A stretch of 64,000 nucleotides of DNA, taken from the IMG/VR virus record IMGVR_UViG_3300025687_000041. One strand, given 5' to 3'. Origin of the DNA: an uncultured virus (IMG/VR IMGVR_UViG_3300025687_000041). Taxonomy: Duplodnaviria > Heunggongvirae > Uroviricota > Caudoviricetes. The notes beneath the pieces are model-generated. The model was not told the DNA's origin and made no database searches. It worked only from the letters and a program-made list of their open reading frames with translations. The position numbers were made by a program, and so were the translations under genes. Shown here in pieces: positions 1,982 through 50,594 of this stretch (its first letter is position 1; every line of letters starts with the position of its first letter).

Positions 1982-1995
1982 CAGGAGTTAATAAA

Positions 1996-2833: not shown

Positions 2834-2879
2834 GTTTATAACAGTGGTTATGGTGACTACTGTTTTCTAGGAGAGTGAC

Positions 2880-3971
2880 ATGGCTGTTATCAATTTCGGA
2901 CACTCGGTGTCCCTGACTCAGTTCGCGGATGCCATCGCTACAGTTGGCGACAAAGTAACCATCATCGGGCAAGGCGAGCCGGGTATCGGCAAGAGTTCCA
3001 TGCTCAAAGTGTTGGCCGCTCGGTTCCCGGAGTACGAGATTGCGTACATCGACTGCACCCTGCTGGACTTGGGTGACTTTGCGTTACCGTACACCGAGAC
3101 AATCCAAAACGAATTAACAGGTGTTAATAAGAAGGTGACGAGGTTCGCGCCCAATGCTCGGTTCAAGTTTCATACCGGCAAACCCGTGATCATTATGCTC
3201 GACGAGATCGGCAAAGCGATGAAAGCAGTTAAGAATGTGCTGCTCACGCTCATGCTGGAGGGGCGCATCGGGGATGACTATCTACCCGAGGGCTCTAAGG
3301 TGTTCGGCGCCACTAACCTGATGACTGACGGGGTGGGGGATATGCTTGAGGCTCACGCTCGCAACCGCGTGGCGCTGGTGACTGTGCGCAAGCCTGATGC
3401 TGACGAGTGGATCGAGTGGGCGATTCAGAACGACATTGACCCGACCATCATTGCTTGGACAAAGCAGTTTCCACATGCGCTGGCAAGCTACACCGACGCA
3501 TCGCAGTCCGACAATCCGTACATCTTCAACCCGACGCGTGCAGGCAGTGGAGCGGTTGTCACACCAAGATCTTTAGAGAAAGCGAGCCACATCGCCAAGC
3601 AGCGTGAAGTGTTGGGTGATGCGCTGACCATCTCTCTGCTGACGGGGACTATCGGTGAGTCTGCGGCACGTGACATGCAAGCGTTCTTTACGGTGGTGGA
3701 CAAGCTGCCTACGTGGGATGCCATCACTAACAACCCGAGTGGGGCTAAGTTGCCTGACGATACGGTGGCGCGGTGCATCCTTGTGTTCTCGGCTATTACT
3801 CGCGTGACTAAGGATACGCTGGCTAAGTGGATGGTGTACGTACAACGTATGGACATGGAGTGGCAAGCCCTGTTCGCTACGAGCGTGATGAAGTCTAGGG
3901 ACAAGCAGTCGTTCTGCGTGATGAACAAGGATTTCAAGGACTGGGCGCTGAAGAATCAGTGGTTGTTCTGA
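2880..3971 (+). CDS. AAA+ ATPase (MoxR/dynein-related type)
   Basis: Walker A GEPGIGKS, Walker B IIMLDE, sensor ATN, TPRS motif. Confidence 0.85.
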   Translation: MAVINFGHSVSLTQFADAIATVGDKVTIIGQGEPGIGKSSMLKVLAARFPEYEIAYIDCTLLDLGDFALPYTETIQNELTGVNKKVTRFAPNARFKFHTGKPVIIMLDEIGKAMKAVKNVLLTLMLEGRIGDDYLPEGSKVFGATNLMTDGVGDMLEAHARNRVALVTVRKPDADEWIEWAIQNDIDPTIIAWTKQFPHALASYTDASQSDNPYIFNPTRAGSGAVVTPRSLEKASHIAKQREVLGDALTISLLTGTIGESAARDMQAFFTVVDKLPTWDAITNNPSGAKLPDDTVARCILVFSAITRVTKDTLAKWMVYVQRMDMEWQALFATSVMKSRDKQSFCVMNKDFKDWALKNQWLF

Positions 3972-3995
3972 AAACAAATTAACAGGAGTTAATAA

Positions 3996-5183: not shown

Positions 5184-5217
5184 GTTAACACCTGTTAATA
5201 AATTAAGGAGAGTGCAA

Positions 5218-6090
5218 ATGAGTATTCAGAACGCATCAATGTTGGTTGACCTGAACATCTCGGCATGGACTGGTCGCAAGATGGACAAGAAAGTCTCGGA
5301 CGAGATCGACGTTGCCAAAAACACCAAGGGGCGAGCGGGGAACTATCACAAGGCGCTGCTCGGTAACACTGGCAAGCTGGCCGAGTTGCAGAAACTTGTC
5401 GGTGCGATTCGCGTGTGGCACTACGAGCAGACACTGCCGTGGTCGGATGCGGGTTCGCGGCTGCTACCCATGAAGAACTTCTTTGACTACAAGGCAATGC
5501 TGGCCGACTACGAGATTCAGTTCAAGGAAGCGGTCGATGAGTTCTTGACCGAGTACCCGACGCTGGTGAGTGCGGCTGCGTTCCAGCTAGGCGATCTGTT
5601 CGATGCAGACGAGTATCCCGACGCGCACAAGCTGGAGGATAAGTTCAAGTTCCGGTATGTGTTCCTGCCCGTGCCGGAGATCGGGGACTTCAGGATTGAC
5701 GTGAACGAGGAGCATCTCGGGGAGTTGAAATCCCAGTACGAATCGTTTTATCAGAACAAGTTGTCAGAAGCTATGCAAGATGCATGGAGCCGGCTCCATG
5801 AATGTCTGACTCGGATGAGTGAGAAGCTGGCCGACTCGGAATCACCGCGCACCAGCAAAGACGGAGAGGTCATCAAGACTCAGATCTTCCGCGACACGCT
5901 GGTCACTAATGCGGTGGAGTTGTGCGGGCTGCTGACTAAGCTGAACGTGACGGGCGATACCAAACTGGAGACTGCCCGTAAACAGCTTGAGACAGCAATC
6001 GTTGGAGTATCAGCTAAGGATCTCAGAGAGAACGATACAACACGTTTAGATGTGAAGTCCAAGGTCGATCAGATTCTTTCTATGTTTTAA
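5218..6090 (+). CDS. Conserved phage protein (DUF3150-like)
   Basis: Helical protein with ISAWTGRK and TLPWSD motifs, directly after the AAA/vWA pair; family name from memory. Confidence 0.55.
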   Translation: MSIQNASMLVDLNISAWTGRKMDKKVSDEIDVAKNTKGRAGNYHKALLGNTGKLAELQKLVGAIRVWHYEQTLPWSDAGSRLLPMKNFFDYKAMLADYEIQFKEAVDEFLTEYPTLVSAAAFQLGDLFDADEYPDAHKLEDKFKFRYVFLPVPEIGDFRIDVNEEHLGELKSQYESFYQNKLSEAMQDAWSRLHECLTRMSEKLADSESPRTSKDGEVIKTQIFRDTLVTNAVELCGLLTKLNVTGDTKLETARKQLETAIVGVSAKDLRENDTTRLDVKSKVDQILSMF

Positions 6091-6100
6091 GGAGAGTGCC

Positions 6101-6886
6101 ATGTTGCTAATCGAAAATACCGATCAGCTTAGCCCCGTTGTAACTTCGCTGCTAAAGGACTTACGACGAACCCATGTGAGCAGGTTCCCCGTCCGGATAG
6201 AGGTGTTGAACCCATCATCTGTCCGGTTCCACGACACTAGATTTCCGTCGGGTACTTTGCTTGCCTCTTTGTACCGGGATAAGGATGCGTGGGTAGTTCA
6301 GTCTAGGCTAATCAACCAATCACGGTTCAATGGGGCGCGTAAGCATCAAAAGCGAACTGGAGATGTGAAAAAGGTGCTCAGGTATCTGCGCGACTTCGCC
6401 ATATCGTTCACACCAGAAGAGGTTGCCAACAGGACATTTCACACGTACGACAATGAGGTTGATGCGTGGAAGTATTCTCTGCGTACGGCGTTCATCGAGG
6501 CGTTTTCGACTACACAATCTGATCTTATAGTCGAGGTCGAACGCATGGTGGCTTCCGGTTACGTACCACGCACGCCATCATTTATTAGGATGTACGACAA
6601 GGGTATCGCTGCCGCCAAGGAGTGGGACCGCATGAAATCGCGTCAGATTATGAAGGTGAGCATAACGATAAACGCGGATGATACGGTCGATATGTTTTCC
6701 TATGACAAGTTAGGGTATGGGGGAATCAACAGAGGGCTTACGGTGCTCCCATCGCTACTAGCCGCTCCGGCCTGTGTACAAGAAGCGGTAGCCATGCTGC
6801 GCCTAGTCGATGAGGGGAAGCTAGTCCCCGAGGTTGGCATGCGCACACGCCCTAACACTTTCTGGGTTGAGGTACTCGCAGAATAA
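6101..6886 (+). CDS. Hypothetical protein
   Basis: 261-aa ORF with AAGGAG RBS. Confidence 0.75.
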   Translation: MLLIENTDQLSPVVTSLLKDLRRTHVSRFPVRIEVLNPSSVRFHDTRFPSGTLLASLYRDKDAWVVQSRLINQSRFNGARKHQKRTGDVKKVLRYLRDFAISFTPEEVANRTFHTYDNEVDAWKYSLRTAFIEAFSTTQSDLIVEVERMVASGYVPRTPSFIRMYDKGIAAAKEWDRMKSRQIMKVSITINADDTVDMFSYDKLGYGGINRGLTVLPSLLAAPACVQEAVAMLRLVDEGKLVPEVGMRTRPNTFWVEVLAE

Positions 6887-6955: not shown

Positions 6956-7219
6956 ATGCGCTACATAGTCCGCGTTACATTCGACAGCAACCAAGTGCAT
7001 TCCATTCGGGCCATAGACAATCGAGACATCGAGTTCATAGACATCCCAAACTTGGCGGTAGCGCCGAAGTTCGTGTCAGAGCGGTTTGCGCTGCTCAGAT
7101 TAACAAATGTTAATAAATCTAGGAGAGGAGAACGTATAGGACGCAAGCTAGAAGAAGATGTAATCGTGATCTACATATCGTATGACGAGTATCAACAAAT
7201 CAAGGAAGAGTGCAAATGA
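6956..7219 (+). CDS. Hypothetical protein
   Basis: Follows the promoter; ATGA overlap with the next gene. Confidence 0.65.
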   Translation: MRYIVRVTFDSNQVHSIRAIDNRDIEFIDIPNLAVAPKFVSERFALLRLTNVNKSRRGERIGRKLEEDVIVIYISYDEYQQIKEECK

Positions 7220-7600: not shown

Positions 7601-7936
7601 ATGTCCACGCCTGAGAAAAAGGTGAAGGACAAAGTGAAGAAGCTGTTGGCTGCGCATGGGGCTTACCACTTCATGCCAGCCACGCACGGCTACGGTGCTT
7701 CCGGGGTTCCCGATATTGTGGCTTGCCTACGTGGACGGTTCCTCGGCATCGAGTGCAAAGCCAACGGCAATCAGCCTACGGATCTTCAGCTAAAGAACTT
7801 GCGGGAACTATCATCTGCGGGCGGGGTTGCCATCCTAGTCGACGAAACTGGCTTGGAATCTTTTGCTGATTTATTAACACGTGTTAATGAGTTACCAGAT
7901 TCCGCTAGTTTTAATTTTTTACGGAGTGCAAAGTGA
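7601..7936 (+). CDS. VRR-NUC domain nuclease (Holliday-junction-resolvase-like)
   Basis: PE...GVPD...IECK...Q motifs. Confidence 0.85.
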   Translation: MSTPEKKVKDKVKKLLAAHGAYHFMPATHGYGASGVPDIVACLRGRFLGIECKANGNQPTDLQLKNLRELSSAGGVAILVDETGLESFADLLTRVNELPDSASFNFLRSAK

Positions 7937-8279: not shown

Positions 8280-8682
8280 GTCCGTAGTGCGTGATGCGGT
8301 CGATGCGCTACTTGCTGACGGAGAACCCCGTACCATTGCACAGATTACCGACGAGCTTGGCCTGAAGCAGCACTCGGTCAGTAGCGCGGTCATCCATGCG
8401 AGAAAGAAGTACGGCTCCGGCACTGGTGGCTTTGTGATCGTCAACTACTCACTACAACGTGGCAACGGTGGTAGGGAAGCACCCATGTACCTGCGTGGGT
8501 TCGACGGGTTGTTCGACGCGCCGCGCCCTGCGTTTGGTATCAAGACAATCCGAGCCGCAAAGTTGCGCTACGCCAAGAAGATGCGCGTGGTCATCAACGG
8601 CAAGACGACGAAGAGCCGGGGTAAAACTCAGAATCATTGGTTACAGATCCTCGGTATGCGCCAACACAACTACAAGTTTTAG
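8263..8682 (+). CDS. Putative HTH DNA-binding protein
   Basis: TIAQITDELGLKQHSVSSAV. Confidence 0.55.
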   Translation: MPRVYKSVVRDAVDALLADGEPRTIAQITDELGLKQHSVSSAVIHARKKYGSGTGGFVIVNYSLQRGNGGREAPMYLRGFDGLFDAPRPAFGIKTIRAAKLRYAKKMRVVINGKTTKSRGKTQNHWLQILGMRQHNYKF

Positions 8683-8693
8683 GAGGAGAACAC

Positions 8694-13337: not shown

Positions 13338-13346
13338 AGGTGTGCG

Positions 13347-13640: not shown

Positions 13641-13716
13641 TACGCAGTACAACTAGAGCAGTTTCTGGGCTGAGAGTGGAAATACCACTTTCGGCCTGTC
13701 GGCGTATGGGGAAAGA

Positions 13717-15264
13717 GTGCAAATCATAGACGATAAAGCGTTGCTGCTAAGGGTCAGAGAACCCAACCGCATAACAACCGTCATCCCGAAGTCCAAGGTG
13801 CTGGATTCAGGCGAAGTGCTGGTCAAGTGGGGGCTGGAAGAAGCGCAGGTGCTAAAGAATCTGCGCATCAAGAATGTACCCTCCCCGATTAGCGCCAAGT
13901 ACGCATGGCCGGGGTTGTATAAACCGTTTGACCATCAGAAGAAAACCGCATCGTTCCTGACCTTGCATCGACGGGCGTTTTGTTTTAACGAACAGGGCAC
14001 CGGCAAGACTTCAAGCGTTATCTGGGCTGCGGACTACCTACTGAATGAAGGGCACATTAAGCGGGTGCTTGTGCTTTGTCCGTTGTCGATCATGCAGTCA
14101 GCATGGGGAGCGGACCTATTTAAGTTCGCTATGCACCGGACAGTAGCTATAGCCCATAGCTATTCCAAAGAGCGGCGCGTCGAGGCGATTAAAAGCGATG
14201 CAGAGTTCGTTATCATTAACTACGACGGGGTGGAGATTATCCGAGACGAGATCGAGGCTGCGGCTTTTGATCTGATCGTGGTCGATGAAGCAAACTCCTA
14301 CAAAAACGTCAGCACAAAACGATGGAAGGCGCTGGCCAGTTTAATTAGAGCCGACACTTGGGTTTGGATGTTGACCGGTACCCCGGCCTCGCAGTCACCG
14401 ACGGACGCTTACGGACTTGCCAAGCTCATCGTGCCGAGCAGAGTGCCCAAGTTTTTCGGCGCGTTCCGTGACATGGTGATGCTCAAGATCACACAGTTCA
14501 AGTGGGTGCCCAAGCGCAACTCAGAAGAAACAGTACACGATGCGCTGCAACCAGCAATACGTTTTACGAAGGAAGAGTGCCTCGACCTTCCGGACATGAC
14601 CTACGTGAACCGGGACGTACCACTGACTGCACAACAAAAGAAATTCTACGAAGCCATCCGTAAGAACATGATGACGGTAGCAGCGGGTGAAGAGATCACC
14701 ACGGTCAACGCAGCCGCGAATCTGAACAAGCTCTTGCAGTTGTCAGGTGGCGCAGTCTACTCCGATACTGGGGAGGTAGTTGCGTTCGATGCGAAGAACC
14801 GCATGGAAGCACTGATCGAGGTGATCGACGAGGCGAGTCATAAGGTGATCGTGTTCGTGCCGTTCAAACACGCGATTGAGATCATCTCGGACGAACTTAA
14901 GAAGCGTAAGATTGCAGCCGAGGTCATCCACGGTGGAGTCAGCGCCGTTAAGCGCACCGAGATTTTTGCGCGGTTCCAGACGGAACCCGACCCTCAAGTG
15001 CTTGTGATCCAACCACAAGCCGCCGCACATGGTGTGACGCTACACGCCGCGAATGTCGTAGTATGGTGGGGGCCGATCACCTCCATCGAAACATACTTGC
15101 AAGCCAATGCACGAGTGCATCGCGCTGGGCAACGCAACCCCTGTACGGTGGTGCATCTACGAGGAAGCCCTGTCGAGCATCGTGTCTACAAGATGCTGTC
15201 AGAAAAAGTGGACATCCACACGAGGGTCATAGACCTTTATAAAAATGTGATCGAAGATACTTGA
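13717..15264 (+). CDS. SNF2-family (SF2) helicase
   Basis: QGTGKT, VVDE, LTGTP, HGVTL, QANARVHRAGQ. Confidence 0.9.
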   Translation: MQIIDDKALLLRVREPNRITTVIPKSKVLDSGEVLVKWGLEEAQVLKNLRIKNVPSPISAKYAWPGLYKPFDHQKKTASFLTLHRRAFCFNEQGTGKTSSVIWAADYLLNEGHIKRVLVLCPLSIMQSAWGADLFKFAMHRTVAIAHSYSKERRVEAIKSDAEFVIINYDGVEIIRDEIEAAAFDLIVVDEANSYKNVSTKRWKALASLIRADTWVWMLTGTPASQSPTDAYGLAKLIVPSRVPKFFGAFRDMVMLKITQFKWVPKRNSEETVHDALQPAIRFTKEECLDLPDMTYVNRDVPLTAQQKKFYEAIRKNMMTVAAGEEITTVNAAANLNKLLQLSGGAVYSDTGEVVAFDAKNRMEALIEVIDEASHKVIVFVPFKHAIEIISDELKKRKIAAEVIHGGVSAVKRTEIFARFQTEPDPQVLVIQPQAAAHGVTLHAANVVVWWGPITSIETYLQANARVHRAGQRNPCTVVHLRGSPVEHRVYKMLSEKVDIHTRVIDLYKNVIEDT

Positions 15265-15288
15265 CAATGTAAACCACACCCTTATAAT
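15261..15288 (+). promoter_or_regulatory. sigma70 promoter
   Basis: TTGACA-16-TATAAT. Confidence 0.75.
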
Positions 15289-15320
15289 AGGGGTTCCTTT
15301 TACAAGCGAAGGAGAGTGCA

Positions 15321-15713
15321 GTGATCGAAGAAACAGAGGCGTGTACCGCCGACAAACTCACAAAAGTCTACGTCAAGATTCGTGAGCGACGTAGGGAACT
15401 TGCTAAGCAGGACAAGGAACTGGAAGAGCAATTAGACATAATTGCCAAACAGTTATTGGAGATCTGCAAAGAGCAGGGTGCCTCTACGATACGCACCGAA
15501 TACGGAACCGTCTCAAGAAGAACGTCCAAGCGGTTTTGGCCTACCGACTGGGATGCTTTCTATAAATTCGTCAAAGACCAAGACGCCATGCAGTTGCTGT
15601 ACCAACGCATCAACACGGCGAACATGGAGCAGTTTCTCGAAGAGAACCCCGATCTACATCCTCCGGGGCTAAACGCGGATGTGTCTCAAACAGTTGTGAT
15701 TGTCAAACGCTAA
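15321..15713 (+). CDS. Conserved phage protein (coiled coil, T..GT, DW..FY, PPG)
   Basis: GTG start with AAGGAG RBS; lies in the replication module. Confidence 0.75.
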   Translation: MIEETEACTADKLTKVYVKIRERRRELAKQDKELEEQLDIIAKQLLEICKEQGASTIRTEYGTVSRRTSKRFWPTDWDAFYKFVKDQDAMQLLYQRINTANMEQFLEENPDLHPPGLNADVSQTVVIVKR

Positions 15714-15723
15714 GGAGAGTGCA

Positions 15724-15948
15724 ATGGAAAACCAACACCGAGAAATTAAGGGGTGCCGTGAACTCAATGAGCACGAGATCGCTTGCATAAACGGCGTGAA
15801 GGAACTGGCCGCAAAAGCCGGGGAACTCATCGTATCGCTAGACCAGATGGGCGAAACGGACAAACGTTGGGTCGCCATCGCCAAAACTGACCTACAAAAA
15901 GGTTTTATGTCCCTCACCCGCGCAATCGCACAACCCACTACTTTCTAA
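15724..15948 (+). CDS. acb2: Anti-CBASS Acb2-like cyclic-nucleotide sponge
   Basis: MENQHREIKGCREL...N.VK...RWVAIAKTDLQKGFM.LTRAIAQPTTF matches the Acb2 sequence pattern as I recall it. Confidence 0.85.
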   Translation: MENQHREIKGCRELNEHEIACINGVKELAAKAGELIVSLDQMGETDKRWVAIAKTDLQKGFMSLTRAIAQPTTF

Positions 15949-15958
15949 GGAGCAACAA

Positions 15959-16843
15959 ATGAGCAACGAACTCGCAGTGCTGGACCAAGGGCTTCCTTCC
16001 TACCTAAAGGAACTTCAACTGGATGACGCTACCAAAGCCCTGATGGGCGGCTCAAGCGGCGGTGAGTCCAAGAGGATTTCCATCAAGGGCGGTGTGTGGC
16101 GCATGATGGTCAACGGCAAAGAAGTCGCCAAGAACGAAGATCGCGCTATGAATGTGGTGATCGCAGCCGCAGCCGAGAAGGTATCGCGCACGTTCTACGC
16201 TAAGCAGTATTCCGAAGGCGGTGAAGTTACTGCTCCCGACTGCTGGTCGGCCAATGGGGATACACCCAGTGACAAGGCTAAGAACCCACAAGCTAAGCGG
16301 TGTTTCGATTGCCCGCAGAACGCTAAAGGTTCCGGTCAGGGCGAGAGCCGTGCATGCCGCTTCAGTCAAAGGCTGGCAGTCGTATTAGCCAACGACATTG
16401 GTGGCGACGTGTTTCAGCTTACCCTTCCGGGGGCATCAATTTTCGGTAGCGGCGAAGCTGGTAAATGGCCGTTGCAGATGTACGCAAAGATGATTGGCAG
16501 CAAAGGCGTGCCGGTCACGGCGGTAGTGACTGAGATGCGGTTCGACACCAGCAGCGCGACGCCCAAGCTTACGTTCAAACCGGTTCGTGTGCTGGAGCCA
16601 CACGAGCATGAGACAGTCATCCAGCAAGGGGCGTCCCCCGCAGCGAAACGCGCTATCACTATGACGGTCGCAGAAGCGGACGGAGTAAAAGCTGCCCCGA
16701 GGCTGGAGGCTAAACCGTCAGCGCAGGTAGCGGAAGAGGTCGAAGCTGTAGAAGAGCCGGTAAAACGAGCCGCAAAGAAAGATGAAGCACCGGCAGAAAA
16801 GAAAGACCTGAGCAAGATCCTTGACGAGTGGGATGATCAGTAA
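15959..16843 (+). CDS. Putative single-stranded DNA-binding protein
   Basis: RISIKG, PDCWS, CxxCP..C motifs; acidic C-terminal tail ending DEWDDQ; position in the replication module. Confidence 0.6.
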   Translation: MSNELAVLDQGLPSYLKELQLDDATKALMGGSSGGESKRISIKGGVWRMMVNGKEVAKNEDRAMNVVIAAAAEKVSRTFYAKQYSEGGEVTAPDCWSANGDTPSDKAKNPQAKRCFDCPQNAKGSGQGESRACRFSQRLAVVLANDIGGDVFQLTLPGASIFGSGEAGKWPLQMYAKMIGSKGVPVTAVVTEMRFDTSSATPKLTFKPVRVLEPHEHETVIQQGASPAAKRAITMTVAEADGVKAAPRLEAKPSAQVAEEVEAVEEPVKRAAKKDEAPAEKKDLSKILDEWDDQ

Positions 16844-17073
16844 TGCCTACTGGCTATTCACTGACAACCATCAAGACGATTGACGATGCAGATCAGAAGC
16901 TACTGGGAGTGCGCCTCGCGCAGCTATGTGTGCGGCTCGACATCCCCGTAAAAGACATAGCCAAGTATTTCGGTGTTAGTCGCGTGACCGTATACAACTG
17001 GTTTAGCGGCGTGTCTGTTGTTTCCGATAAGCACCAAGATCGTATGAGTGAGCTAATAAAGAAGTTAGCTTGA
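16843..17073 (+). CDS. Cro/XRE-like HTH protein
   Basis: VKDIAKYFGVSRVTVYNWFSG. Confidence 0.8.
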   Translation: MPTGYSLTTIKTIDDADQKLLGVRLAQLCVRLDIPVKDIAKYFGVSRVTVYNWFSGVSVVSDKHQDRMSELIKKLA

Positions 17074-17162
17074 AGGTTTGAGGGGGCTAGGTTCGCTACC
17101 GAAAAGGGTGTCGCCGTCACGCCCCTGCCCAACCTCTCTTTGACGGCGCGTTAAGGACGGCC

Positions 17163-20015
17163 ATGCTTTCACGCAAGGAGTTTTTACAATTAATACTCCC
17201 GCCTCTGGACGAAGGGGAGTGCTACTTTAGCTGGGGTCTAAAGATAGTCAACAACCGGGAAGTAGTTAAGCAGCGCCCCGCGATTGACCTTGATGATCTC
17301 GATGCGAAGTCCACAGCCCTTGGGGATGAAGGCTTTAACGTATTTTTTGCGGTGGCGAAGTTTGCTGCTGCCAAAAATGGGCGGTTTGCTGCAAATGCGG
17401 TATCTCTGAAGAGCTTTTTTATTGACCTCGATTGTGGTCCCGGTAAGCCATACGACACGTTGGAAGATGGGCTAGTCGCACTCAAAGCATTTTGTAGGAC
17501 GCACAAACTTCCACGCCCGACATTGATTCGATCCGGGCGGGGTGCGCATGTCTACTGGGTGCTTGAAGAAGCCATGCCACGCACCGAGTGGAAGCCGTTA
17601 GCTGAGCAGCTAAAGAAGCTGTGTACCGCAGACAAGTTTGATATTGATTACGCAGTTCCCGCCGATGCTGCACGGGTGCTGCGAGTACCGCTCACGCTGC
17701 ACGTAAAAGATCCGACTAATCCGATCCCGGTAGATTTTCTGTATGTAGCGCCGCCCGTAGCCAATGAAGTTATGGCGGAACTCCTCAAGCCAGATGAGGA
17801 CGTACTAGAGGCACTGACAAAGACGTTTCAGAAACGCCCGCTGGACCCGGTAACACTCGCCCTGATGGGGTCAAGCCAGTCTCGGTTCAAGACCATATTG
17901 ATTAAATCGGTAGAAGGCACCGGCTGCGCACAGATAGCGAACATCTACGAGAACCAATCCACGATTGACGAGCCACTATGGCGGGCGGGACTGTCGATTG
18001 CGCAGCAATGTGTGGACAGAGATAAAGCAATCCACGCGATCAGTAAGGGGTACCCGGAGTACAACGCCGAGGATACCGAGAGGAAAGCCAACGAGACAAA
18101 GGGTCCATACACCTGTGAGACGTTCAAACGCTTAAACCCGAGCCTGTGCGAAGGCTGCACACTCAAGATCACGTCCCCCATACAACTTGGGAAAGAGATC
18201 GTAGAGGCAACCGAAGAGGACAGCAAGGTCGTCGGGGTCGAAGCTGCTACACAGGAAGTAAAAGAATATGTAGTCCCGAAGTATCCGTTCCCATTCTTCA
18301 GGGGCAAGAGCGGGGGTGTGTTCATTCGCAGCAAAGATGCGGACGGAAACGACAAAGACGAAGTTGTTTATCCATACGACTTTTACGTCGTCAAACGAAT
18401 GCTGGACCCGGACGCCGGGGAGACTTTGCTTTTGCGGCTGCACTTACCCAAGGACGGGGTGAGGGAGTTCATCATGCCGCTGGCATCGGTACTGGCAAAA
18501 GACAAGTTTAGGGAAGCAATCGCATCCAAAGGCGTCGCCGTTTTAAGCAAGCAGCAGGACATTCTTATGTGGTACGTGACTAAGTGGGTAGAGGAGCTAC
18601 AAATGAATTCTCAAGCAGAAAAAGCGCACAAGCAGTTCGGGTGGGTTGATGATAATTCAGCCATCATTCTTGGAGACCGGGAGATTCGGGCGACTGAAAT
18701 CGTCTACAGTCCCCCCTCCACACCGACACTACCGCTGGTGCCGTTGTTCACCGCCAAAGGTGATTTCCACGTGTGGAAAGACATCATCAACGCATACAAC
18801 AGACCCGGAATGGAGGGCCGCGCATTCGCATTCTTCATGGGCTTTGGGGCTATGCTGATGAAGTTCACGCCGCTCGATGGCTTCTTGCTCAACTTGATGA
18901 GCCGCGAGTCAGGGTCAGGCAAGACTACGGTTCTGCATGCGATCAACAGTATCTACGGCAGACCCAAAGAACTCCTGCTGTACCCAAAAGATACATACAA
19001 CTCCCGCATGCAACGCTTTGGGACCATGCGTAATTTCGCCGTGACTCTGGACGAAATCACCAATATGCCGCCGGATCAAATGTCCCAACAGATTTATGAC
19101 GTGACATCCAGCCGAGGTAAGAACCGGATGAGGCAGCATGAAAACGCTGAGCGCCTGAACCACACAAGCTTTGCTACCTGTGTAATTTCTTCAAGCAATA
19201 GGTCAGTCCCCGACGCGTTACTCTCTATAAAGAGCTTTCCAGATGGGGAGTTGAACCGTGTTCTTGAGATCCCCATAAAGCCGGAAGAGGGGGCAGATAC
19301 AAGCTGGTCGCGGAACCACTTCGCGCAACTGCTGACCAACTACGGGCATGCCGCCGAGCCGTTCGCTCAAACTATTGTTTCTCAGCTACCGTCAGTACAG
19401 GACATGATGCGGGGTATTCACGAGAAAGTCGATGCCGCCGCAACGGTGCGCAACACAGAACGGTACTGGTCAACAGCGGTGATGCTTGCTGTAACTGGAG
19501 GGTCTATCGCTAAGAAGCTGGGGCTGCACGATATTGAGATAAAGCCGGTGTTCGACTTTGGGATCAATCTCATACAGACCACACGTGCAAAAAATCGGGA
19601 GCACATGTTCGACGCTGATGAGTACCTCGGCGGGTTCCTGCAACGTCACTTCCACGAGATTTTAGTAATCAACGGCAAGAGTGATAAGCACACCGGCCTT
19701 GAGCACGGCCCGATCCGCGAACCCCGTGGGGCTTTGACCGCACGATACGAACCAGATACCAAGATGCTGTACGTAATGACCAAGGCGTACCGGGATGATT
19801 GCGCCAAGAACTTTATGAACTTTGATGAATCACTGGCCCCATATCACAAGACTAAGGCGCTGGTGGAGATCAAGAAAAAACGCATGACCGCTGGCACTGT
19901 CGCCAACACCCAAGCTGCGGTGAACTGCCTGTGCTTCGATACCTCCAGATTGGAGTTCTTTGACGATACGGTGCTACTCAAAGATGAAGATACTGGGCCT
20001 ACCACTACTGATTGA
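17163..20015 (+). CDS. Primase-helicase (AEP-type primase plus DUF927-like P-loop domain)
   Basis: DLD, SGRGAHVYW, RVLRVP; Cys cluster; GSGKTT and TLDE. Confidence 0.85.
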   Translation: MLSRKEFLQLILPPLDEGECYFSWGLKIVNNREVVKQRPAIDLDDLDAKSTALGDEGFNVFFAVAKFAAAKNGRFAANAVSLKSFFIDLDCGPGKPYDTLEDGLVALKAFCRTHKLPRPTLIRSGRGAHVYWVLEEAMPRTEWKPLAEQLKKLCTADKFDIDYAVPADAARVLRVPLTLHVKDPTNPIPVDFLYVAPPVANEVMAELLKPDEDVLEALTKTFQKRPLDPVTLALMGSSQSRFKTILIKSVEGTGCAQIANIYENQSTIDEPLWRAGLSIAQQCVDRDKAIHAISKGYPEYNAEDTERKANETKGPYTCETFKRLNPSLCEGCTLKITSPIQLGKEIVEATEEDSKVVGVEAATQEVKEYVVPKYPFPFFRGKSGGVFIRSKDADGNDKDEVVYPYDFYVVKRMLDPDAGETLLLRLHLPKDGVREFIMPLASVLAKDKFREAIASKGVAVLSKQQDILMWYVTKWVEELQMNSQAEKAHKQFGWVDDNSAIILGDREIRATEIVYSPPSTPTLPLVPLFTAKGDFHVWKDIINAYNRPGMEGRAFAFFMGFGAMLMKFTPLDGFLLNLMSRESGSGKTTVLHAINSIYGRPKELLLYPKDTYNSRMQRFGTMRNFAVTLDEITNMPPDQMSQQIYDVTSSRGKNRMRQHENAERLNHTSFATCVISSSNRSVPDALLSIKSFPDGELNRVLEIPIKPEEGADTSWSRNHFAQLLTNYGHAAEPFAQTIVSQLPSVQDMMRGIHEKVDAAATVRNTERYWSTAVMLAVTGGSIAKKLGLHDIEIKPVFDFGINLIQTTRAKNREHMFDADEYLGGFLQRHFHEILVINGKSDKHTGLEHGPIREPRGALTARYEPDTKMLYVMTKAYRDDCAKNFMNFDESLAPYHKTKALVEIKKKRMTAGTVANTQAAVNCLCFDTSRLEFFDDTVLLKDEDTGPTTTD

Positions 20016-20178
20016 TTGGGCTAAATTCCAACCAGACACGTCGTTCTTCGTGCCTTGTATCGACCGCAAACTCACGCAGCGGTTTGTAGAATCAGAAGCA
20101 CGCCGTATGAAGGTGGGTATCTTGTGTAAACACGTTATTGAGAACGGGAAATATGGATTGCGGGTCTGGAGGGTGTAG
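19984..20178 (+). CDS. Small conserved hypothetical protein
   Basis: SFFVP...GLRVWRV; last + strand gene of the arm. Confidence 0.65.
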   Translation: MKILGLPLLIDWAKFQPDTSFFVPCIDRKLTQRFVESEARRMKVGILCKHVIENGKYGLRVWRV

Positions 20179-20186
20179 CCTATAAT
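20158..20186 (+). promoter_or_regulatory. Promoter of the candidate sRNA
   Basis: TTGCGG-17-TATAAT with no downstream ORF. Confidence 0.6.
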
Positions 20187-20188
20187 CG

Positions 20189-20250
20189 CACTGCACTCTC
20201 CTTCTCCTCCTAGAGAAGATGTTACCCCGGCGCAATGCCGGGGTTTTTTT
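20189..20250 (+). ncRNA. Candidate trans-acting anti-RBS small RNA (about 60 nt)
   Basis: Promoter upstream; 5' CACTGCACTCTCCTTC complementary to early-gene RBSs; hairpin CTTCTC/GAGAAG; intrinsic terminator. Confidence 0.65.
20224..20250 (+). terminator. Rho-independent terminator
   Basis: ACCCCGGC-GCAAT-GCCGGGGT followed by a T run. Confidence 0.9.
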
Positions 20251-23200
20251 CACTCCTCTTCCAGCAGGTCGGTGATTTCGGGCATCAGCCGCTTATTAAA
20301 ACGCACCCCGTTGATCATGCTCTTCTCGGCAGCTTCCCTTGCCTTTATGGACCGCCGCAGGGTATCGGAACTGATCCGCGCTTTCGGGTCGATGCGCCTG
20401 TCGTTGAACCGAGCGATCTCTTCCCGGACTTCTTCCATCAAGTCGTAATCGTCGGTAGTGCGGGCTATCTCGTTCTTATCCAGCAACCGCTTGCGCTGCG
20501 CCAAGATCTCTCGCTCATACCCCTTCCGCATAGATACATCTTCGTAGGCAAGAGACAGGTCTGCGGGAGTAAACCCAAGCATCTGCATGACTCCGTTGTA
20601 CACGGAAACATCATCGACAATCGGGTCGCCTTTGAGGGTAAGTGCGCCCTCGGACATATACCGCGCACCCTTCAGCGCATTCCGTAAGAAGCTGGGAAGT
20701 ACGGCCTCGATCCCCCGCTGCACGTTGCCTTCCCGCATAAGCTTTGCCCCGTTCTCAACGCCCACTGCGTAAGACCCAAGAGGGCCAGCCAACTGCCTAA
20801 GCGCAGTCATCACGTAGCCATCCTCAGCAACGCCACGGGGGTCATCACGGAAGAGTAGATCGTTTGCCACACCGATACGGTTAGAGACTTCCAAATTCAG
20901 AAAGTAGTTGGGCAACCCTTTGTAGAACAACTCATTTGTCCATTGGCGCATCAGCACATCAAAATCAAACGGCTCGTCATCATCTCCGAGCAGGGCGTTA
21001 ATCATGTTCGCCAAAACCGAAGCGGCCCCCATAAAGGGCATCCCGTTGGCCCCCGCAAGAGCCATCGCCATTCCGTAGGTGCCGACTAGTTGCCTAAAGG
21101 CTTCTTTGCGAACTTCAGGGGACTCACCCTTAACGCTCTGATGGAAGGCCCGTGCGATCAACGCAGCTTGGTTCCACGCAAACGACTTGAACGTAAGCAT
21201 CACGCGACCAAGCGGGTGCTGCATGTATGTCGAGGCGCTGGCAGACAAGCCTGACGTGTTCATATCTTTCACGGCGCTCAGCGCATACCTGATGGCATCC
21301 GCCTCGTTCATAGCCGGGATCTTCAGCGCGGGATTGCCCTTCAGCGCCAACTCATACGCCGCGATTGCGGTAGCCCCCCGGTTCATCACCTCAGAAATAT
21401 GGAACGGCTTAGAGATGAGGTCCATTACCCTAGCTTTGAACCCCAGATAATCTGCGGTGGTTTGCCTACGCCCCTCAAGCACCTCACGCGCCATCGTATG
21501 TTCCAACTGCGCATGGTCATTTAATACATCAAACAGCCTTGCGTACTTACCCGGAACCTTCTTTTTGAGCGCATACATACTCGCAATTTTTGTCGCGCCC
21601 GTCAGTGCAAACGTAGCTTTATCAAACCCAAACCGTCCCCCCAGCATAGGCCATGCGAACAGAGGCAACGTAGATAAGTTCACCAGTGCCGAGGACACGT
21701 TACCCGCGATGAACGTGAAATAACTAAGGCTCGTGGCTGCGGACGTTAGCTTGTTATACGTTGGGTTATTGATAAAGTTTTGCCGGTTACGAATATTCTG
21801 CGCAGCGGCATATACACTCGGGTCATTTACCGCTTCAGCTTCCCCGTCAATAGCGTCGAACGCTTGATTGATAGGACCAGCGTACTTGGTATTAGCCAAT
21901 TTACGGGACCATTTAACCATGGTCTCCGCATACCCCCGTGCAACATCCCGCTCCATACCCCGAACATTGTCGGCTTTCATAAAGTTCTTGGAGATGGATG
22001 CAGCGGGGAACAGCGCCAGATACGCCTGATAGACGTTATCTTTAATCTCTTGACTAGCGCCTTGCTTGTTTAGGTCCGCCATCACCCCCACGATGAAACT
22101 GGTCGGTGGCAACGTACCCTGTTGGAAGCTTTGGTTCTCAATGTTCTGGTACATCCGGTATTGGACGCCCTTGGGCGCAAGTTCTTGCCGGATAAAGCGG
22201 TCACGCTCACGGATTGATTGGAAAGCGGAAGCCGCACGTTCCCCGTCTATGTCGTACTCAACCCAGAAGTCGCCCCTACGCAGAAATGGAATGTAGGCAA
22301 TCTGCCGCTTCTTGGCTTGGAATTGCAGCTTAAGTTTGGCAGCGACTGAGGAATCGACAAGTCCCGGAATACCTTTGTCGGGATCGCCCACCAGCATGGC
22401 TTCGTAGTCGTCAATCGCCTTAGTGTAAGCGTCCCGAATCATGTCGTAGGTCTTACGCACATCTGCGGGTAAGGAGTTGTAGATGTTGCGCAGCCGTCGA
22501 TATTCCTGCTGTTGTTTGGCGCTCAGCCCAGTCTGTTTTAGGAAGTCTGGATCTTTGGGGTCCGCCATTTCCAAGCGAGCATCGTAGGCCATGTCTTCCA
22601 TGACCTTAAACTGAGCCGGGAATTTCTTCTGCGTTTCCGCAAAGAACTTGTAGTTCTTATTGATTTCCGCAATCGCCTTCTCCTGCATTCCGTTACGCAA
22701 CTCGATGTTGTCGGTCAGAGTCTGGATAGAAGGCAGTTCTTTCCCATAAATGGTGTTAAGGTTGTCCAGCCGCAAAAGGCTGAGCGCCATGGATTTCAAA
22801 TCCGACGGGGCGTTCGACAGAGAGTTTTTGGTGCTTTCTACGGTGCGTCCAGCTAACGATGGCATCGCACGACCAATATCCCCCACGACATTAAACGCTT
22901 CGCGCATGAGATTTGGTGTGCCAAGGAACATCATGTCGCTCACAGACGGTTCCACATCAGCAGAAATGTCCAGTGCGTCGTTGATGAGCTTCATGCCCCG
23001 GTCATAGGCACTTGTACCTTTGGTAAATCCAAAGAAGTTTGCCAGTGCTTGCACAATCCGTTTGAACAGACTGCCGCTCTTAGGAGCCTTGATCTCTTTG
23101 AGCAGTGCTTGGAATTCTGGGTTACTAAACAACTCAGACGTGAATTCCTGAATGTCTTGGGCACCATAGGCAGTACCCATCTGACCTCGTATTCCATCAA

Positions 23201-50590: not shown

Positions 50591-50594
50591 AGCA

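What the first reader, a model, noticed from the sequence alone, without database searches (positions are those of the whole stretch)
20158..20250. Candidate phage small RNA antisense to a shared extended RBS of many early genes
SEEN: after the last replication gene there is a promoter (TTGCGG-17-TATAAT, 20158-20186), about 60 nt with no ORF, a hairpin (CTTCTC/GAGAAG) and an intrinsic terminator. The 5' segment CACTGCACTCTCCTTC (20189-20204) is the perfect 16-nt complement of GAAGGAGAGTGCAGTG at 15308-15323, which covers the SD and GTG start of the 130-aa gene. The same motif sits at other starts: AAGGAGAGTGCA at 5205 and at 15712 (Acb2 homolog), AAGGAGAGTGC at 6089, AAGGAAGAGTGCA at 7202, AGGAGAGTG at 2869 (AAA ATPase), GGAGTGCA at 7923, AGAGTGCA at 13714 (helicase) and AAGGAGAG at 10545. 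A second segment spanning the hairpin loop, TTCTCCTCCTA (20202-20212), is the perfect complement of the RBS at 8680-8690. The shared AGTGCA lies beyond the SD core, so 16S pairing does not explain it. I did not notice the motif at structural-gene starts. KNOWN: bacterial sRNAs repress translation by seed pairing over the SD and start codon. INFERENCE: one trans-acting RNA shuts down an early/anti-defence regulon, either at the early-to-late switch or during a carrier state.
Basis: partly seen in the sequence, partly recalled or inferred. Interest (0 to 1): 0.92.

Follow-up and report, generated by a model that had tools for sequence, protein, structure and literature searches.

The report
Phage small RNA mirroring early-gene starts
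A group of uncultured water phages carries a conserved RNA gene of about 57 bases whose first seven bases mirror a motif between the ribosome-binding site and start codon of many of the phage's own early genes, so one small RNA probably switches those genes off together.

Summary

- **Conservation.** The element lies where the early (+) and late (-) arms converge. It occurs in 52 distinct variants among primase-linked relatives. Each has a -10 box 6-7 nt before an invariant GCACUCU, a hairpin with changing stems, an AU linker and a terminator.
- **Target motif.** The complement AGAGUGC is the second commonest 7-mer in early-gene start regions of six genomes (21 of 213) and is absent from late ones (0 of 147).
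- **Covariation.** sRNA position 8 covaries with one conserved start region, showing all four Watson-Crick pairs plus wobble intermediates.
- **Co-loss.** A nested clade that lost the RNA also lost the motif (0 of 69 start regions). A clade with an altered 5' end has a matching altered target.
- **Coding overlap.** A small ORF overlaps the seed in most relatives, but codon analysis shows the constraint is on nucleotides, not on protein.

Not supported:
- the 16-nt match (lineage-specific, and partly upstream of the likely RNA start);
- the second "loop" seed.

No transcript data could be obtained, so repression and its timing remain inference. The closest analogues are P1/P7 c4 RNA, T4 RegB/RegA and Burkholderia double-hairpin anti-RBS sRNAs. 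It is a member of none of them.

The parts
20158..20163 (+). -35-like hexamer TTGCGG (3 of 6 consensus bases), inside the end of the small ORF (codons G-L-R)
   Evidence: Conserved as TTGCG(G/T) or TTACG(A/G) in relatives, but there it is also constrained by the conserved protein sequence YGLRVW.
20181..20186 (+). -10 hexamer TATAAT
   Evidence: TAnnnT lies at -12..-7 or -13..-8 relative to the conserved G in 49 of 52 variants. Its T and A are invariant in 40 of 40 in-frame variants although the encoded residues vary.
20193..20250 (+). Predicted small RNA, about 57 nt, from G20193 (7 nt after the -10) to the U run
   Evidence: Covariance model R1 scores 56.3 bits here, with one hit per related genome at 30-67 bits. 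All 52 of 52 variants fold as a free 5' end followed by two hairpins, 48-70 nt long. No transcript has been observed.
20193..20199 (+). Invariant seed GCACUCU at the predicted 5' end
   Evidence: Invariant in 21 of 21 first-set variants. Among the 52 CM-aligned variants the exceptions are two with GCAUUCU (C to U opposite G, a wobble) and L118, whose aligned 5' end reads GCACCCU. Loci the model missed carry other 5' ends (L106/L146, L134/L135, L075/L076, L123). It is the reverse complement of AGAGUGC.
20193..20204 (+). Lineage-specific extended seed GCACUCUCCUUC, complementary to GAAGGAGAGUGC
   Evidence: 12 of 12 against 15308-15319, and 11 of 12 against 5206-5216, 6090-6100 and 15713-15723. 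Duplex energies run from -24.4 to -19.7 kcal/mol.
20201..20218 (+). Hairpin 1 (CUUCUC / loop CUCCUA / GAGAAG), CU-rich and anti-SD-like
   Evidence: Stems differ among relatives (UACUUC/GAAGUA, UCCUC/GAGGA, CUACU/AGUAG, CCUCA/UGAGG and others). All 6 of 6 pairs of this helix show compensatory changes.
20224..20250 (+). Intrinsic terminator (8-bp GC stem, loop GCAAU, 7 U). It abuts the stop codon of the convergent 2387-aa gene at 20250-20252.
   Evidence: 6 of 8 pairs show compensatory changes. Stop codon position.
19984..20178 (+). Small conserved ORF (64 aa, ending ...YGLRVWRV*) that carries the -35; last gene of the early arm
   Evidence: In 44 of 50 relatives it reads on through the -10 and the seed with a variable tail.
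15308..15323 (+). Target start region of the 130-aa Gam-like gene (DUF7307): GAAGGAGAGTGCA plus GTG
   Evidence: AGAGTGC is kept in this start region in 22 of 40 relatives examined. The leader keeps cgaaggag but loses the motif in the clade without the RNA.
15712..15726 (+). Target start region of the 74-aa Acb2/Tad1-hairpin-domain gene
   Evidence: Pfam PF24729, E 2.8e-13.
13714..13720 (+). AGAGTGC at the SNF2-helicase start; the GTG inside the motif is the start codon
   Evidence: The base 5' of this motif covaries with sRNA position 8 in relatives, but in this window it is a C/A mismatch.
5205..5220 (+). Target start region of the 290-aa gene (weak DUF3150)
6089..6103 (+). Target start region of the 261-aa gene of unknown function
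7202..7218 (+). Target start region (AAGGAAGAGTGCA) of the 125-aa wHTH-like gene
7923..7934 (+). Weaker motif copy GGAGTGCA before GTG 7932 (DUF3310 protein)
2869..2882 (+). Partial motif AGGAGAGTG before the AAA-ATPase gene
8680..8690 (+). RBS TAGGAGGAGAA, complementary to 20202-20212. The match is real, but its relevance is not supported by relatives.
   Evidence: In the own-versus-other test of the variable part, mean longest match was 7.12 against 6.84, p = 0.10.

Best explanation
20193-20250 is a small-RNA gene of about 57 nt.

Expression (inferred). A sigma-70-type promoter with a weak -35 and a perfect -10 lies in the tail of the last early gene and starts the RNA at G20193. The same terminator also ends the early operon, so the RNA may also arise from the operon's 3' end.

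Anatomy (shown by sequence and comparison). The RNA has a single-stranded 5' seed GCACUCU, a CU-rich hairpin, an AU linker and a terminator with a U tail.

Action (inferred). The seed pairs with AGAGUGC, a motif that a subset of the phage's early genes carry between the Shine-Dalgarno sequence and the start codon, or overlapping a GUG start. In this phage the pairing extends over the SD itself (GAAGGAGAGUGC, 11-12 bp at four genes). Pairing over SD, spacer and start would block 30S binding. It would so repress translation of a set of early genes together: the Gam-like gene, the Acb2/Tad1-like gene, the SNF2 helicase, a wHTH gene and several unknowns. Repression probably builds as the RNA accumulates, and may be followed by mRNA decay. 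Late genes lack the motif and would escape.

Status of each step:
- Shown: the conserved anatomy, the complementarity, the covariation and the co-loss.
- Inferred: transcription from G20193, pairing in vivo, repression rather than activation, timing, and any chaperone.
For: 1. Conserved gene-like unit.
- 52 distinct variants, all at the same place about 180-200 nt after the primase gene. All 52 fold as a free 5' end plus two hairpins, 48-70 nt long. A -10 TAnnnT is found in 49 of 52 at a fixed 6-7 nt before the conserved G.
- On the 52-row alignment 82.4% of cells are paired against 70.5% in shuffles. 12 of 14 pairs have compensatory changes. The covariation score is 0.352 against 0.169, reached by 0 of 500 shuffles, and slid controls score at most 0.160.

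2. The target motif was found independently.
- In an unbiased k-mer census of start regions (-22..+8) of six genomes, AGAGTGC is the second commonest 7-mer. It occurs in 21 of 213 early and 0 of 147 late start regions. GAGTGC occurs in 29 of 213 and 0 of 147.
- In 46 non-redundant loci (374 kb upstream of the RNA) AGAGTGC occurs 76 times on the sense strand. Its reverse complement occurs 6 times, the reversed word 26 times, and the uniform expectation is 22.8. 49 of the 76 lie in a start-region context.
- The motif is used in two registers, either before ATG or containing the GTG start.

3. Covariation with a target.
- sRNA position 8 pairs with the base 5' of AGAGUGC in the helicase-region start site in 14 Watson-Crick plus 2 wobble of 18 loci.
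- Reduced to 13 lineages: 9 plus 2, permutation p = 0.003 (WC) and 0.0008 (WC plus GU).
- All four WC types occur. On the primase tree U:A (L012/L127), U.G (L080) and C:G (L041/L042) are successive neighbours, and C:G arises again in L114.

4. Co-loss and co-change.
- A nested clade (L099, L100, L102, L139) lacks both the RNA and the terminator. It has GAGTGC in 0 of 69 called start regions. Its Gam-like leader keeps cgaaggag but not the spacer motif.
- L106/L146 have the 5' end ACACUCC and a Gam-like start region GGAGUGU, a 7-nt complement.
- L075/L076/L118 have another 5' end and no motif at that leader.

5. The constraint is on nucleotides, not on protein.
- In 40 variants where the small ORF reads through the seed, the codon before His encodes P, S, T, L, A or M, yet its third base (the RNA's G1) is G in 40 of 40. 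CAC occurs in 38 and CAT in 2. TCT occurs in 40 of 40. The -10 T and A are invariant although residues vary. Synonymous sites of the conserved YGLRVWR vary freely.
- 5 variants read the seed in another frame, and in 6 variants, including this window, it is non-coding.

6. Direction of regulation. Motif start regions are as open as other early ones (mean unpaired probability 0.51 against 0.49). There is therefore no sign of a closed structure that pairing would open.
Against: - No transcript was seen. The single RNA run that holds part of the phage has no cover at the locus and is stored as contigs.
- The -35 matches 3 of 6 consensus bases, and the promoter scan did not report this promoter.
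- Whole-distribution duplex energies of the 16-nt 5' end against early and late start regions discriminate poorly. Mann-Whitney p values in the six genomes are 0.14, 0.04, 0.65, 0.013, 0.0004 and 0.18. Shuffled seeds did as well in 29, 0, 52, 3, 7 and 56 of 300 trials. Any CU-rich RNA pairs with an SD.
- The conserved seed is only 7 nt.
- In this window position 8 mismatches the helicase site (C against A).
- In the most divergent clade (L116, L122, L137, L140-L144) the seed is kept but the Gam-like start region lacks the motif, and no position-8 match is seen.
- The covariation rows are related. At the level of 8 distinct states, permutation p is 0.12 (WC) and 0.03 (WC plus GU).
- The loss clade represents one evolutionary event.
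- In most relatives the seed lies inside a translated ORF.
- The A5 alignment was fitted to the model's structure, which favours pairing.
Confidence: 0.68

Rival explanations
1. The RNA is real, but its main targets are host mRNAs. On this reading it is a phage copy of the CU-rich double-hairpin anti-RBS sRNAs of Betaproteobacteria, used to damp host translation, and the match to phage start regions is secondary.
For: - Full-length but sub-threshold matches to Rfam RF02278 (Betaproteobacteria toxic sRNA): 29.7 bits against a gathering score of 50. Also anti-hemB: 27.4 against 49.5. Three of 11 relatives searched at a permissive threshold score about 30 bits.
- Those RNAs are 57-67 nt double hairpins with CU-rich stretches complementary to ribosome-binding sites, and overexpressing one of them attenuates growth (PMC5688073, passages read).
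- The hairpin-1 region is CU-rich in nearly all variants.
Against: - The invariant part is GCACUCU, not the CU-rich stretch.
- Its complement is enriched specifically at phage early starts.
- It is lost together with the RNA.
- The host is unknown, so no host target could be examined.
Confidence: 0.1
2. The RNA pairs with the early start regions but protects or activates them. It might, for example, shield them from a RegB-like nuclease or stabilise the mRNAs, rather than repress them.
For: The same complementarity, covariation and co-loss fit this reading equally well. T4 shows that early start regions can be nuclease targets through an extended GGAG motif (PMC3014915, passages read).
Against: - Pairing covers the SD-to-start spacer and, in this phage, the SD and a GUG start. 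That should exclude the 30S subunit.
- Motif start regions are not more structured than others, 0.51 against 0.49.
- No RegB-like gene was noticed among the proteins scanned (62 protein queries in all, several ORFs scanned in two libraries, and not every ORF).
Confidence: 0.08
3. No regulatory RNA pairing exists. AGAGTGC/GCACTCT would be a double-stranded DNA (or other) site for one phage or host protein, present in either orientation, and the hairpins would be only the early-operon terminator.
For: - A DNA site reads the same in both orientations.
- A protein with shifting specificity could make distant sites change together.
- The promoter is weak by consensus.
Against: - The motif sits in the SD-to-start spacer of mRNAs on the sense strand only: 76 sense against 6 antisense.
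- The locus keeps a -10 at a fixed distance from the motif.
- Wobble intermediates U.G and G.U lie between WC states on the tree. They make sense for RNA pairing, not for a DNA site.
- Position 8 matches one start region, while other start regions in the same genome carry G there.
- The clade without the element has no terminator at all between the arms, so the terminator belongs to the module.
Confidence: 0.07
4. The complementary segment acts only in cis, as the 3' UTR of the early operon mRNA. That mRNA would run from the promoter at 15261-15288 to the terminator at 20244. The 3' UTR would pair with the operon's own 5' start region (15308-15323), giving 5'-3' end pairing for stability or autoregulation.
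For: - A consensus promoter TTGACA-16-TATAAT at 15261-15288 precedes the gene whose start region holds the full 16-nt match, and the next strong terminator is the one at 20224-20250.
- The 4 extra matched bases (20189-20192) would exist only in read-through RNA.
Against: - The 16-nt extension is absent from relatives.
- A conserved -10 sits at a fixed distance before the seed.
- The motif occurs at several genes outside that operon: 5205, 6089, 7202 and 13714.
Confidence: 0.05
5. The segment is a relic or a working minus-strand ribosome-binding site with a mini-ORF, downstream of the late operon.
For: On the minus strand it reads TAGGAGGAGAAGGAGAGTGCA followed by GTG CGA TTA TAG.
Against: - The minus-strand ORF from the motif's GTG is 3 to 77 codons long in 21 variants.
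- The minus-strand SD is missing in several of them, for example the L013 and L038 types.
- The U run of the terminator is on the + strand.
- The + strand small ORF, not the minus frame, shows protein-level conservation.
Confidence: 0.02

Closest known systems
c4 antisense RNA of phages P1 and P7 (with the related P4 CI RNA)
   Same: A phage-encoded small RNA that acts in trans by sequence-specific pairing around a ribosome-binding site of the phage's own mRNA and blocks translation. Seed and target differ between related phages (PMC12197685, passages read).
   Different: - c4 controls one antirepressor operon in temperate phages, through loop sequences.
- Here a 5'-terminal seed matches a motif spread over many early genes of a phage with no integrase among the proteins scanned.
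- There is no Rfam C4 match at the gathering score in the window, nor at E up to 10 at the locus.
T4 RegB endoribonuclease (with S1) and RegA translational repressor
   Same: One phage-encoded factor recognises an extended motif in the start regions of many early, but not late, mRNAs and inactivates them together. The RegB consensus is GG*AGRAYARAA, that is, the SD plus specific 3' bases (PMC3014915, passages read).
   Different: Those factors are proteins. Here the proposed recogniser is an RNA, and recognition would be by base pairing. No RegA or RegB homologue was noticed in the proteins scanned.
Burkholderia 'double-hairpin' / Betaproteobacteria toxic small RNAs (Rfam RF02278) and anti-hemB
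   Same: About 57-67 nt, two hairpins with the second being the terminator, and CU-rich stretches complementary to ribosome-binding sites (PMC5688073, passages read). The phage RNA aligns end to end with the model.
   Different: - The score is 29.7 bits against a gathering score of 50, and about 30 bits in three relatives.
- It is chromosomal and multi-copy in bacteria, but single-copy in the phage.
- The phage RNA's invariant part is the non-CU seed GCACUCU.
Enterobacterial sRNAs with a 5'-terminal seed (RybB, OmrA/B type), and 3'-UTR sRNAs with their own promoter inside the upstream gene (DapZ, MicL type).
   Same: A short conserved seed at the very 5' end, followed by a hairpin, an AU-rich linker and a terminator with a U tail. 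The promoter is embedded in the upstream coding region and the terminator is shared with the mRNA.
   Different: Those are host-encoded and regulate host regulons, and their Hfq dependence has been shown. Here the host, any chaperone and the transcript itself are all unknown.
Phage lambda PreS and other recently described phage sRNAs
   Same: A phage-encoded trans-acting sRNA active in the lytic cycle (bioRxiv 10.1101/2024.10.31.621285; title and start of abstract seen in search listings).
   Different: By its title, that sRNA acts on the host replication machinery. Here the predicted targets are the phage's own early genes.

Membership tests
Rfam C4 antisense RNA family (P1/P7 c4, P4 CI) | Match to the family covariance model at its gathering score | tested here: not met
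   0 Rfam matches at gathering score in the whole window. C4 is not among the 25 matches with E up to 10 at 20120-20300.
Rfam RF02278 Betaproteobacteria toxic small RNA (double-hairpin RNAs) | Match to the covariance model at its gathering score (50 bits) | tested here: not met
   29.7 bits in the window. 30.4, 30.0 and 30.0 bits in 3 of 11 relatives searched at a permissive threshold. None of 17 relatives matched at the gathering score.
Rfam RF02278 Betaproteobacteria toxic small RNA (double-hairpin RNAs) | About 57-67 nt, two hairpins, CU-rich stretches complementary to ribosome-binding sites | tested here: met
   57 nt, two hairpins, CU-rich from the 5' arm to the loop. Family description from PMC5688073.
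Rfam RF02278 Betaproteobacteria toxic small RNA (double-hairpin RNAs) | Encoded in several copies on betaproteobacterial chromosomes | tested here: not met
   One copy per phage genome, always after the primase gene. Bacterial genomes were not searched.
Trans-acting seed-pairing sRNA (functional class) | Own transcription unit giving a discrete short RNA | not testable with these tools
   Only predicted: a -10 in 49 of 52 variants at a fixed distance, and a terminator in 52 of 52. RNA data were uninformative.
Trans-acting seed-pairing sRNA (functional class) | Conserved single-stranded seed complementary to several target start regions, with covariation | tested here: met
Trans-acting seed-pairing sRNA (functional class) | Regulation abolished by seed mutation and restored by a compensatory target mutation | not testable with these tools
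   Needs reporter experiments.
Hfq-dependent sRNA | Rho-independent terminator with a U tail of about 6 or more, preceded by an AU-rich linker | tested here: met
   Seven U in the window. The printed tail ends in 4 or more U in all 52 variants, and the run is interrupted in a few, for example L012 and L042.
Hfq-dependent sRNA | Binding to and dependence on host Hfq | not testable with these tools
   The host is unknown and there are no data.
3'-UTR sRNA with its own promoter inside the upstream gene (DapZ/MicL type) | Promoter inside the upstream coding region and a terminator shared with the mRNA | tested here: inconclusive
   The -35 lies inside the small ORF in the window. The -10 and the seed lie inside it in 44 of 50 relatives. 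The terminator is the only strong one after the early arm. Promoter activity has not been shown.

The most novel reading that the evidence does not exclude
These phages use an RNA-based early shut-off code. A subset of early genes is tagged by a spacer motif (AGAGUGC) between SD and start codon. The tagged genes include replication, recombination (Gam-like) and anti-CBASS (Acb2/Tad1-like) functions. A single 57-nt phage RNA with a 5'-terminal seed reads that tag to silence the whole set at once. It would be an RNA counterpart of T4 RegB/RegA. Tag and reader co-evolve base by base and are discarded together. With the analogous unpublished candidates noted elsewhere in this scan, this would point to a widespread and so far undescribed layer of phage temporal control.
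Probability: 0.5. Interest if true: 0.88.

Novelty: new variant of a known kind. Interest (0 to 1): 0.8.

Why it matters
Temporal control in lytic phages is explained mainly by promoters, sigma or RNA-polymerase switches and a few proteins such as T4 RegA and RegB. Known phage sRNAs mostly come from temperate phages and act on one immunity operon or on host genes.

A small RNA that reads a motif written into the start regions of many of the phage's own early genes would be a new regulatory layer. It is compact and easy to test, with a 7-nt seed and defined targets. It is also reusable as a programmable multi-gene switch.

It would further show that the spacer between SD and start codon, usually treated as neutral, can carry class-specific regulatory information. 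That matters for gene annotation and for reading early and late classes directly from uncultured phage genomes.

One predicted target is an Acb2/Tad1-like sponge, so the timing of counter-defence may be set post-transcriptionally.

Searches of the held literature found no description of such a case (review PMC12197685, passages read).

Tried and rejected
- DNA similarity to GenBank phages found nothing in either near or distant mode. By protein, the nearest named phage is Pseudomonas phage Rollin, with primase at 27.9% identity. Its matching region has no hit to the RNA model.
- No whole genome is held for the window.
- RNAalifold on the plain MAFFT alignment found only 4 terminator pairs, because hairpin 1 shifts register. 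The 52-row alignment was used instead.
- Expression. One metatranscriptome run held about 5% of the sampled words. Laid on 8000-26000 it gave 9 contigs, none over 20158-20250, and as contigs they cannot show RNA ends. This is no evidence either way.
- Energy-based target ranking with the 16-nt 5' end did not separate early from late start regions consistently.
- Second seed. The longest complement between sRNA nt 8-30 and a locus's own start regions is no better than against other loci (7.12 against 6.84, Wilcoxon p = 0.10, 34 loci). For the window itself this test covered only the 10 kb upstream, so it did not include 8680.
- Opening of a closed start region was rejected: accessibility 0.51 against 0.49.
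- A minus-strand gene or relic RBS was rejected.
- Protein-coding conservation of the seed (the tail ...PHS...) was considered seriously and rejected by codon-position analysis.
- Extended 16S pairing (AAGGAG, a bulged A, then GUG) was considered from the sequence alone. It does not explain the conserved C and A, the absence from late genes, or the co-loss with the RNA. The host 16S sequence is unknown.
- Earlier notes of this scan: none for this genome or sequence. A word search returned analogous candidates in other phages. These were used as leads only.
Full report
**Setting.** The window is a phage-like genome with two convergent arms.
- The + strand from 1 to 20178 holds early and replication genes. 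These include an AAA ATPase, a DUF2201 VWA/metallopeptidase protein, a sigma-factor-like protein, a DNA polymerase, an exonuclease, an SNF2 helicase, a Gam-like DUF7307 protein, an Acb2/Tad1-hairpin protein and a 950-aa primase-like protein.
- The - strand from 20250 to about 63000 holds a 2387-aa DarB-like protein, tail and virion proteins, a major head protein, a portal and a large terminase.
- Four consensus or near-consensus sigma-70 promoters lie on the early strand, at 655, 2805, 6902 and 15261.
- Nothing in the GenBank phage collection is similar at DNA level. The nearest named phage by primase is Pseudomonas phage Rollin at 27.9% identity.
- No whole genome is held for the window.

**The observation.**
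- The shared motif is an SD (AAGGAG), a six-base spacer (AGTGCA) and the start codon. At the helicase gene the GTG inside the motif is itself the start codon.
- The stretch 20187-20250 folds into the stated hairpin plus a terminator: -24.0 kcal/mol, z -3.67, with 1 of 200 shuffles as good.
- The terminator's U run touches the stop codon of the convergent 2387-aa gene.

**Relatives.**
- A primase-based scan of viral contigs gave 51 loci at 54-100% identity. A profile-based scan of metagenome contigs confirmed 219 relatives, of which 80 were kept.
- Directly after the primase gene and a small conserved ORF (ending ...YGLRVW...), nearly all loci that reach that far carry the same unit. It consists of a -10-like TAnnnT, then 6-7 bases, then GCACTCT, a hairpin whose stem sequence changes from lineage to lineage, an AU-rich linker, a GC-rich hairpin and a T run.
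- A covariance model built from 21 variants finds exactly one copy per genome at 30-67 bits. It finds no second copy in the window and none in phage Rollin.
- There are 52 distinct variants in all. All 52 fold as a free 5' end plus two hairpins, 48-70 nt long. 49 of 52 have TAnnnT at -12..-7 or -13..-8 relative to the conserved G.
- On the 52-row alignment 82.4% of cells are paired against 70.5% in shuffles. 12 of 14 pairs show compensatory changes. The covariation score is 0.352 against 0.169, reached by 0 of 500 shuffles, and slid controls score at most 0.160. That alignment was fitted to the model, which favours pairing.
- The fixed distance from the -10 puts the likely RNA start at G20193. 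The conserved 7-mer would then be the very 5' end of an RNA of about 57 nt.

**Is the seed conserved only because it is coding?** This was the most serious objection.
- In this window the small ORF (19984-20178) stops before the -10. In 44 of 50 relatives examined it runs on through the -10 and the seed, ending in a variable tail such as ...PHSASP*.
- In the 40 variants that read xxG CAC TCT in frame, the codon before His encodes P, S, T, L, A or M. Its third base, the RNA's first G, is nevertheless G in 40 of 40. His is CAC in 38 and CAT in 2. Ser is TCT in 40 of 40.
- The T and A of the -10 are invariant although the residues they encode vary.
- By contrast, synonymous sites of the strictly conserved YGLRVWR just upstream vary freely.
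- Five further variants read the 7-mer in another frame (GCA CTC T). In six, including the window, it is non-coding.
- The constraint is therefore on the nucleotides.
- The minus-strand reading fails. From the motif's GTG the minus-strand ORF is 3 to 77 codons long in 21 variants, and its SD is often missing.

**The target motif, found independently.** I fetched five related genomes and called genes with a simple ORF-plus-SD rule.
- In a census of all k-mers in start regions (-22..+8), AGAGTGC is the second commonest 7-mer in early start regions. It occurs in 21 of 213, in all six genomes, and in 0 of 147 late start regions. GAGTGC occurs in 29 of 213 and 0 of 147.
- With a slightly different window (-22..+6), GAGTGC is in 25 of 215 early-arm genes and 3 of 247 minus-strand ORFs. 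Of those three, two are doubtful ORFs inside the early arm of one genome, and one starts at the RNA locus itself.
- Over 46 non-redundant loci (374 kb upstream of the RNA), AGAGTGC occurs 76 times on the sense strand. Its reverse complement occurs 6 times, the reversed word 26 times, and the uniform expectation is 22.8. 49 of the 76 lie in an SD-plus-start context.
- The invariant 5' 7-mer of the RNA is the exact reverse complement of this motif.
- The flanks of the motif copies differ within the window, so the copies are not duplicated cassettes.

**Covariation.**
- One start region is conserved in position: upstream of the helicase, or of a 73-codon gene inserted before it in some lineages. 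It carries AGAGTGC in 18 loci that also have the RNA.
- The base just 5' of the motif pairs with RNA position 8 in 14 loci by Watson-Crick and in 2 by wobble.
- All four Watson-Crick types occur. Reduced to 13 lineages the count is 9 plus 2 against 3.8 expected (permutation p = 0.003). Reduced to the 8 distinct states it is not significant for WC alone (p = 0.12).
- On a primase tree the states U:A (L012/L127), U.G (L080) and C:G (L041/L042) are successive neighbours. G:C (L008, L077) lies near G.U (L038). C:G arises again in the distant L114.
- The window itself is an exception, with C opposite A. Its sister lineages have U:A. The U-to-C change in the window's RNA gives instead an uninterrupted 11-12-nt match to the commoner GAAGGAGAGUGC start regions.
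- The two variants with GCAUUCU replace C with U opposite a G, which keeps a wobble pair.

**Co-loss and co-change.**
- Four loci (L099, L100, L102, L139; two close pairs) have neither the RNA nor any terminator between the arms. They form one clade nested among RNA-bearing lineages, next to the L014 group.
- None of their 69 called start regions holds GAGTGC. The Gam-like leader keeps ccttttacaaacgaaggag but continues TAAGC or AGAGC instead of AGTGCA. The helicase-region start site has lost the motif.
- L106/L146 carry a changed 5' end (ACACUCC), and their Gam-like start region reads GGAGUGU, a 7-nt complement.
- L075/L076/L118 have a different 5' part and no motif at that leader.
The opposite is seen. 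The loss clade is, however, a single event.

**Results that do not fit, or do not help.**
- No transcript evidence could be had.
- The -35 is poor, and the promoter scan did not report the promoter.
- Duplex energies of the 16-nt 5' end do not separate early from late start regions reliably, because any CU-rich RNA pairs with an SD.
- The part of the RNA after the seed shows no own-versus-other complementarity (7.12 against 6.84, p = 0.10).
- In the most divergent clade the seed is kept but the Gam-like start region lacks the motif. AGAGTGC is present in that start region in 22 of 40 loci examined.
- The 16-nt duplex is confined to the window's lineage, and 4 of its bases lie upstream of the likely RNA start.

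**Mechanism.**
- The anatomy resembles a classical trans-acting sRNA with a 5'-terminal seed. It also resembles a 3'-UTR sRNA with its own promoter inside the upstream gene, sharing the operon's terminator (comparison recalled, not read here).
- Pairing would cover the spacer and start codon, and in this phage the SD as well. The motif start regions are no more structured than other early ones (0.51 against 0.49 unpaired). Occlusion of the 30S subunit, and hence repression, is therefore the simplest reading. Activation or protection cannot be excluded.
- Predicted targets in the window are the Gam-like gene (15321), the Acb2/Tad1-like gene (15724), the 290-aa and 261-aa genes (5218, 6101), a wHTH gene (7216), the helicase (13717) and, more weakly, the DUF3310 gene (7932) and the AAA ATPase (2880).
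- Timing, any chaperone and effects on the host are unknown.

**Comparison with known systems.**
- No Rfam family matches at its gathering score.
- At a permissive threshold the locus aligns end to end with RF02278 (Betaproteobacteria toxic sRNA) at 29.7 bits against 50, and with anti-hemB at 27.4 against 49.5. Three relatives score about 30 bits. These are the Burkholderia 'double-hairpin' RNAs of 57-67 nt with CU-rich anti-RBS stretches (PMC5688073, passages read).
- So the phage RNA works like them and may share ancestry, but it fails the membership score, and its invariant part is a different, non-CU seed.
- Among phage RNAs the nearest is c4 of P1/P7 (PMC12197685, passages read), which was not matched here.
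- Functionally the nearest are T4 RegB and RegA (PMC3014915, passages read).
- Three full-text searches and that review gave no case of a phage sRNA aimed at a motif shared by many of its own early genes.
- Earlier notes of this scan list analogous, unchecked candidates in other phage groups.

**Verdict.** The core interpretation is supported by four independent comparative lines: a conserved gene-like unit, an independently found complementary motif, covariation, and co-loss. It remains untested at the RNA level. I put 0.68 on the stated mechanism. It is a new variant of a known kind, and of high interest.

Noticed in passing
window 17080-17146 (+), between the 76-aa HTH gene and the primase gene: An int-alpA RNA motif (Rfam RF02996) scores 35.4 bits, just under the gathering score of 35.8, which is why the whole-window scan missed it. 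The same motif is above threshold directly upstream of the primase gene in 5 of 17 relatives scanned (L104, L038, L126, L093, L092).
   Followed up: partly
window 1972-1995 and 3972-3995 (+): A second repeated start-region cassette, AACAAATTAACAGGAGTTAATAA, precedes two genes. Its SD sits in the loop of a TTAAC/GTTAA hairpin. TTAACAG is present in 14 of 213 early and 0 of 147 late start regions of six genomes. The loops of some relatives' sRNAs contain CUCCUGU(U), its complement, but the own-versus-other test was negative.
   Followed up: partly
window 15261-15294 (+): A perfect TTGACA-16-TATAAT promoter overlaps a terminator-like hairpin whose loop is the TATAAT (ACCCT TATAATA GGGGT followed by a T-rich run). 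It lies between the helicase gene and the Gam-like gene. The following leader ccttttacaa(a/g)cgaaggag is conserved across relatives, even in the clade without the sRNA.
   Followed up: no
L014, L008, L038, L041 and others, about 216 nt upstream of the helicase start; compare window 13690-13720: In some lineages a gene of about 73 codons sits between the conserved start region and the helicase. In others, including the window, the helicase starts at the GTG inside the motif. The start region stays in place while the gene behind it changes.
   Followed up: partly
L099, L100, L102, L139 (end of primase plus about 200 nt): In the clade without the sRNA the two convergent arms meet with no intrinsic terminator at all. 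The small ORF's stop and the end of the big convergent gene almost touch.
   Followed up: no
window 20250-27413 (-): A 2387-aa protein. Its C-terminal third matches DarB-like antirestriction PHROGs (E 2e-79), and it has weaker matches to a virion RNA polymerase family.
   Followed up: no
window 2880-5183 (+): A gene pair of an AAA_5/MoxR-like ATPase and a DUF2201 (putative metallopeptidase plus VWA-like) protein in the early arm.
   Followed up: no
window 49763-50611 (-): A homing-endonuclease-like gene inside the structural arm (PHROG 314, E 3.9e-16).
   Followed up: no
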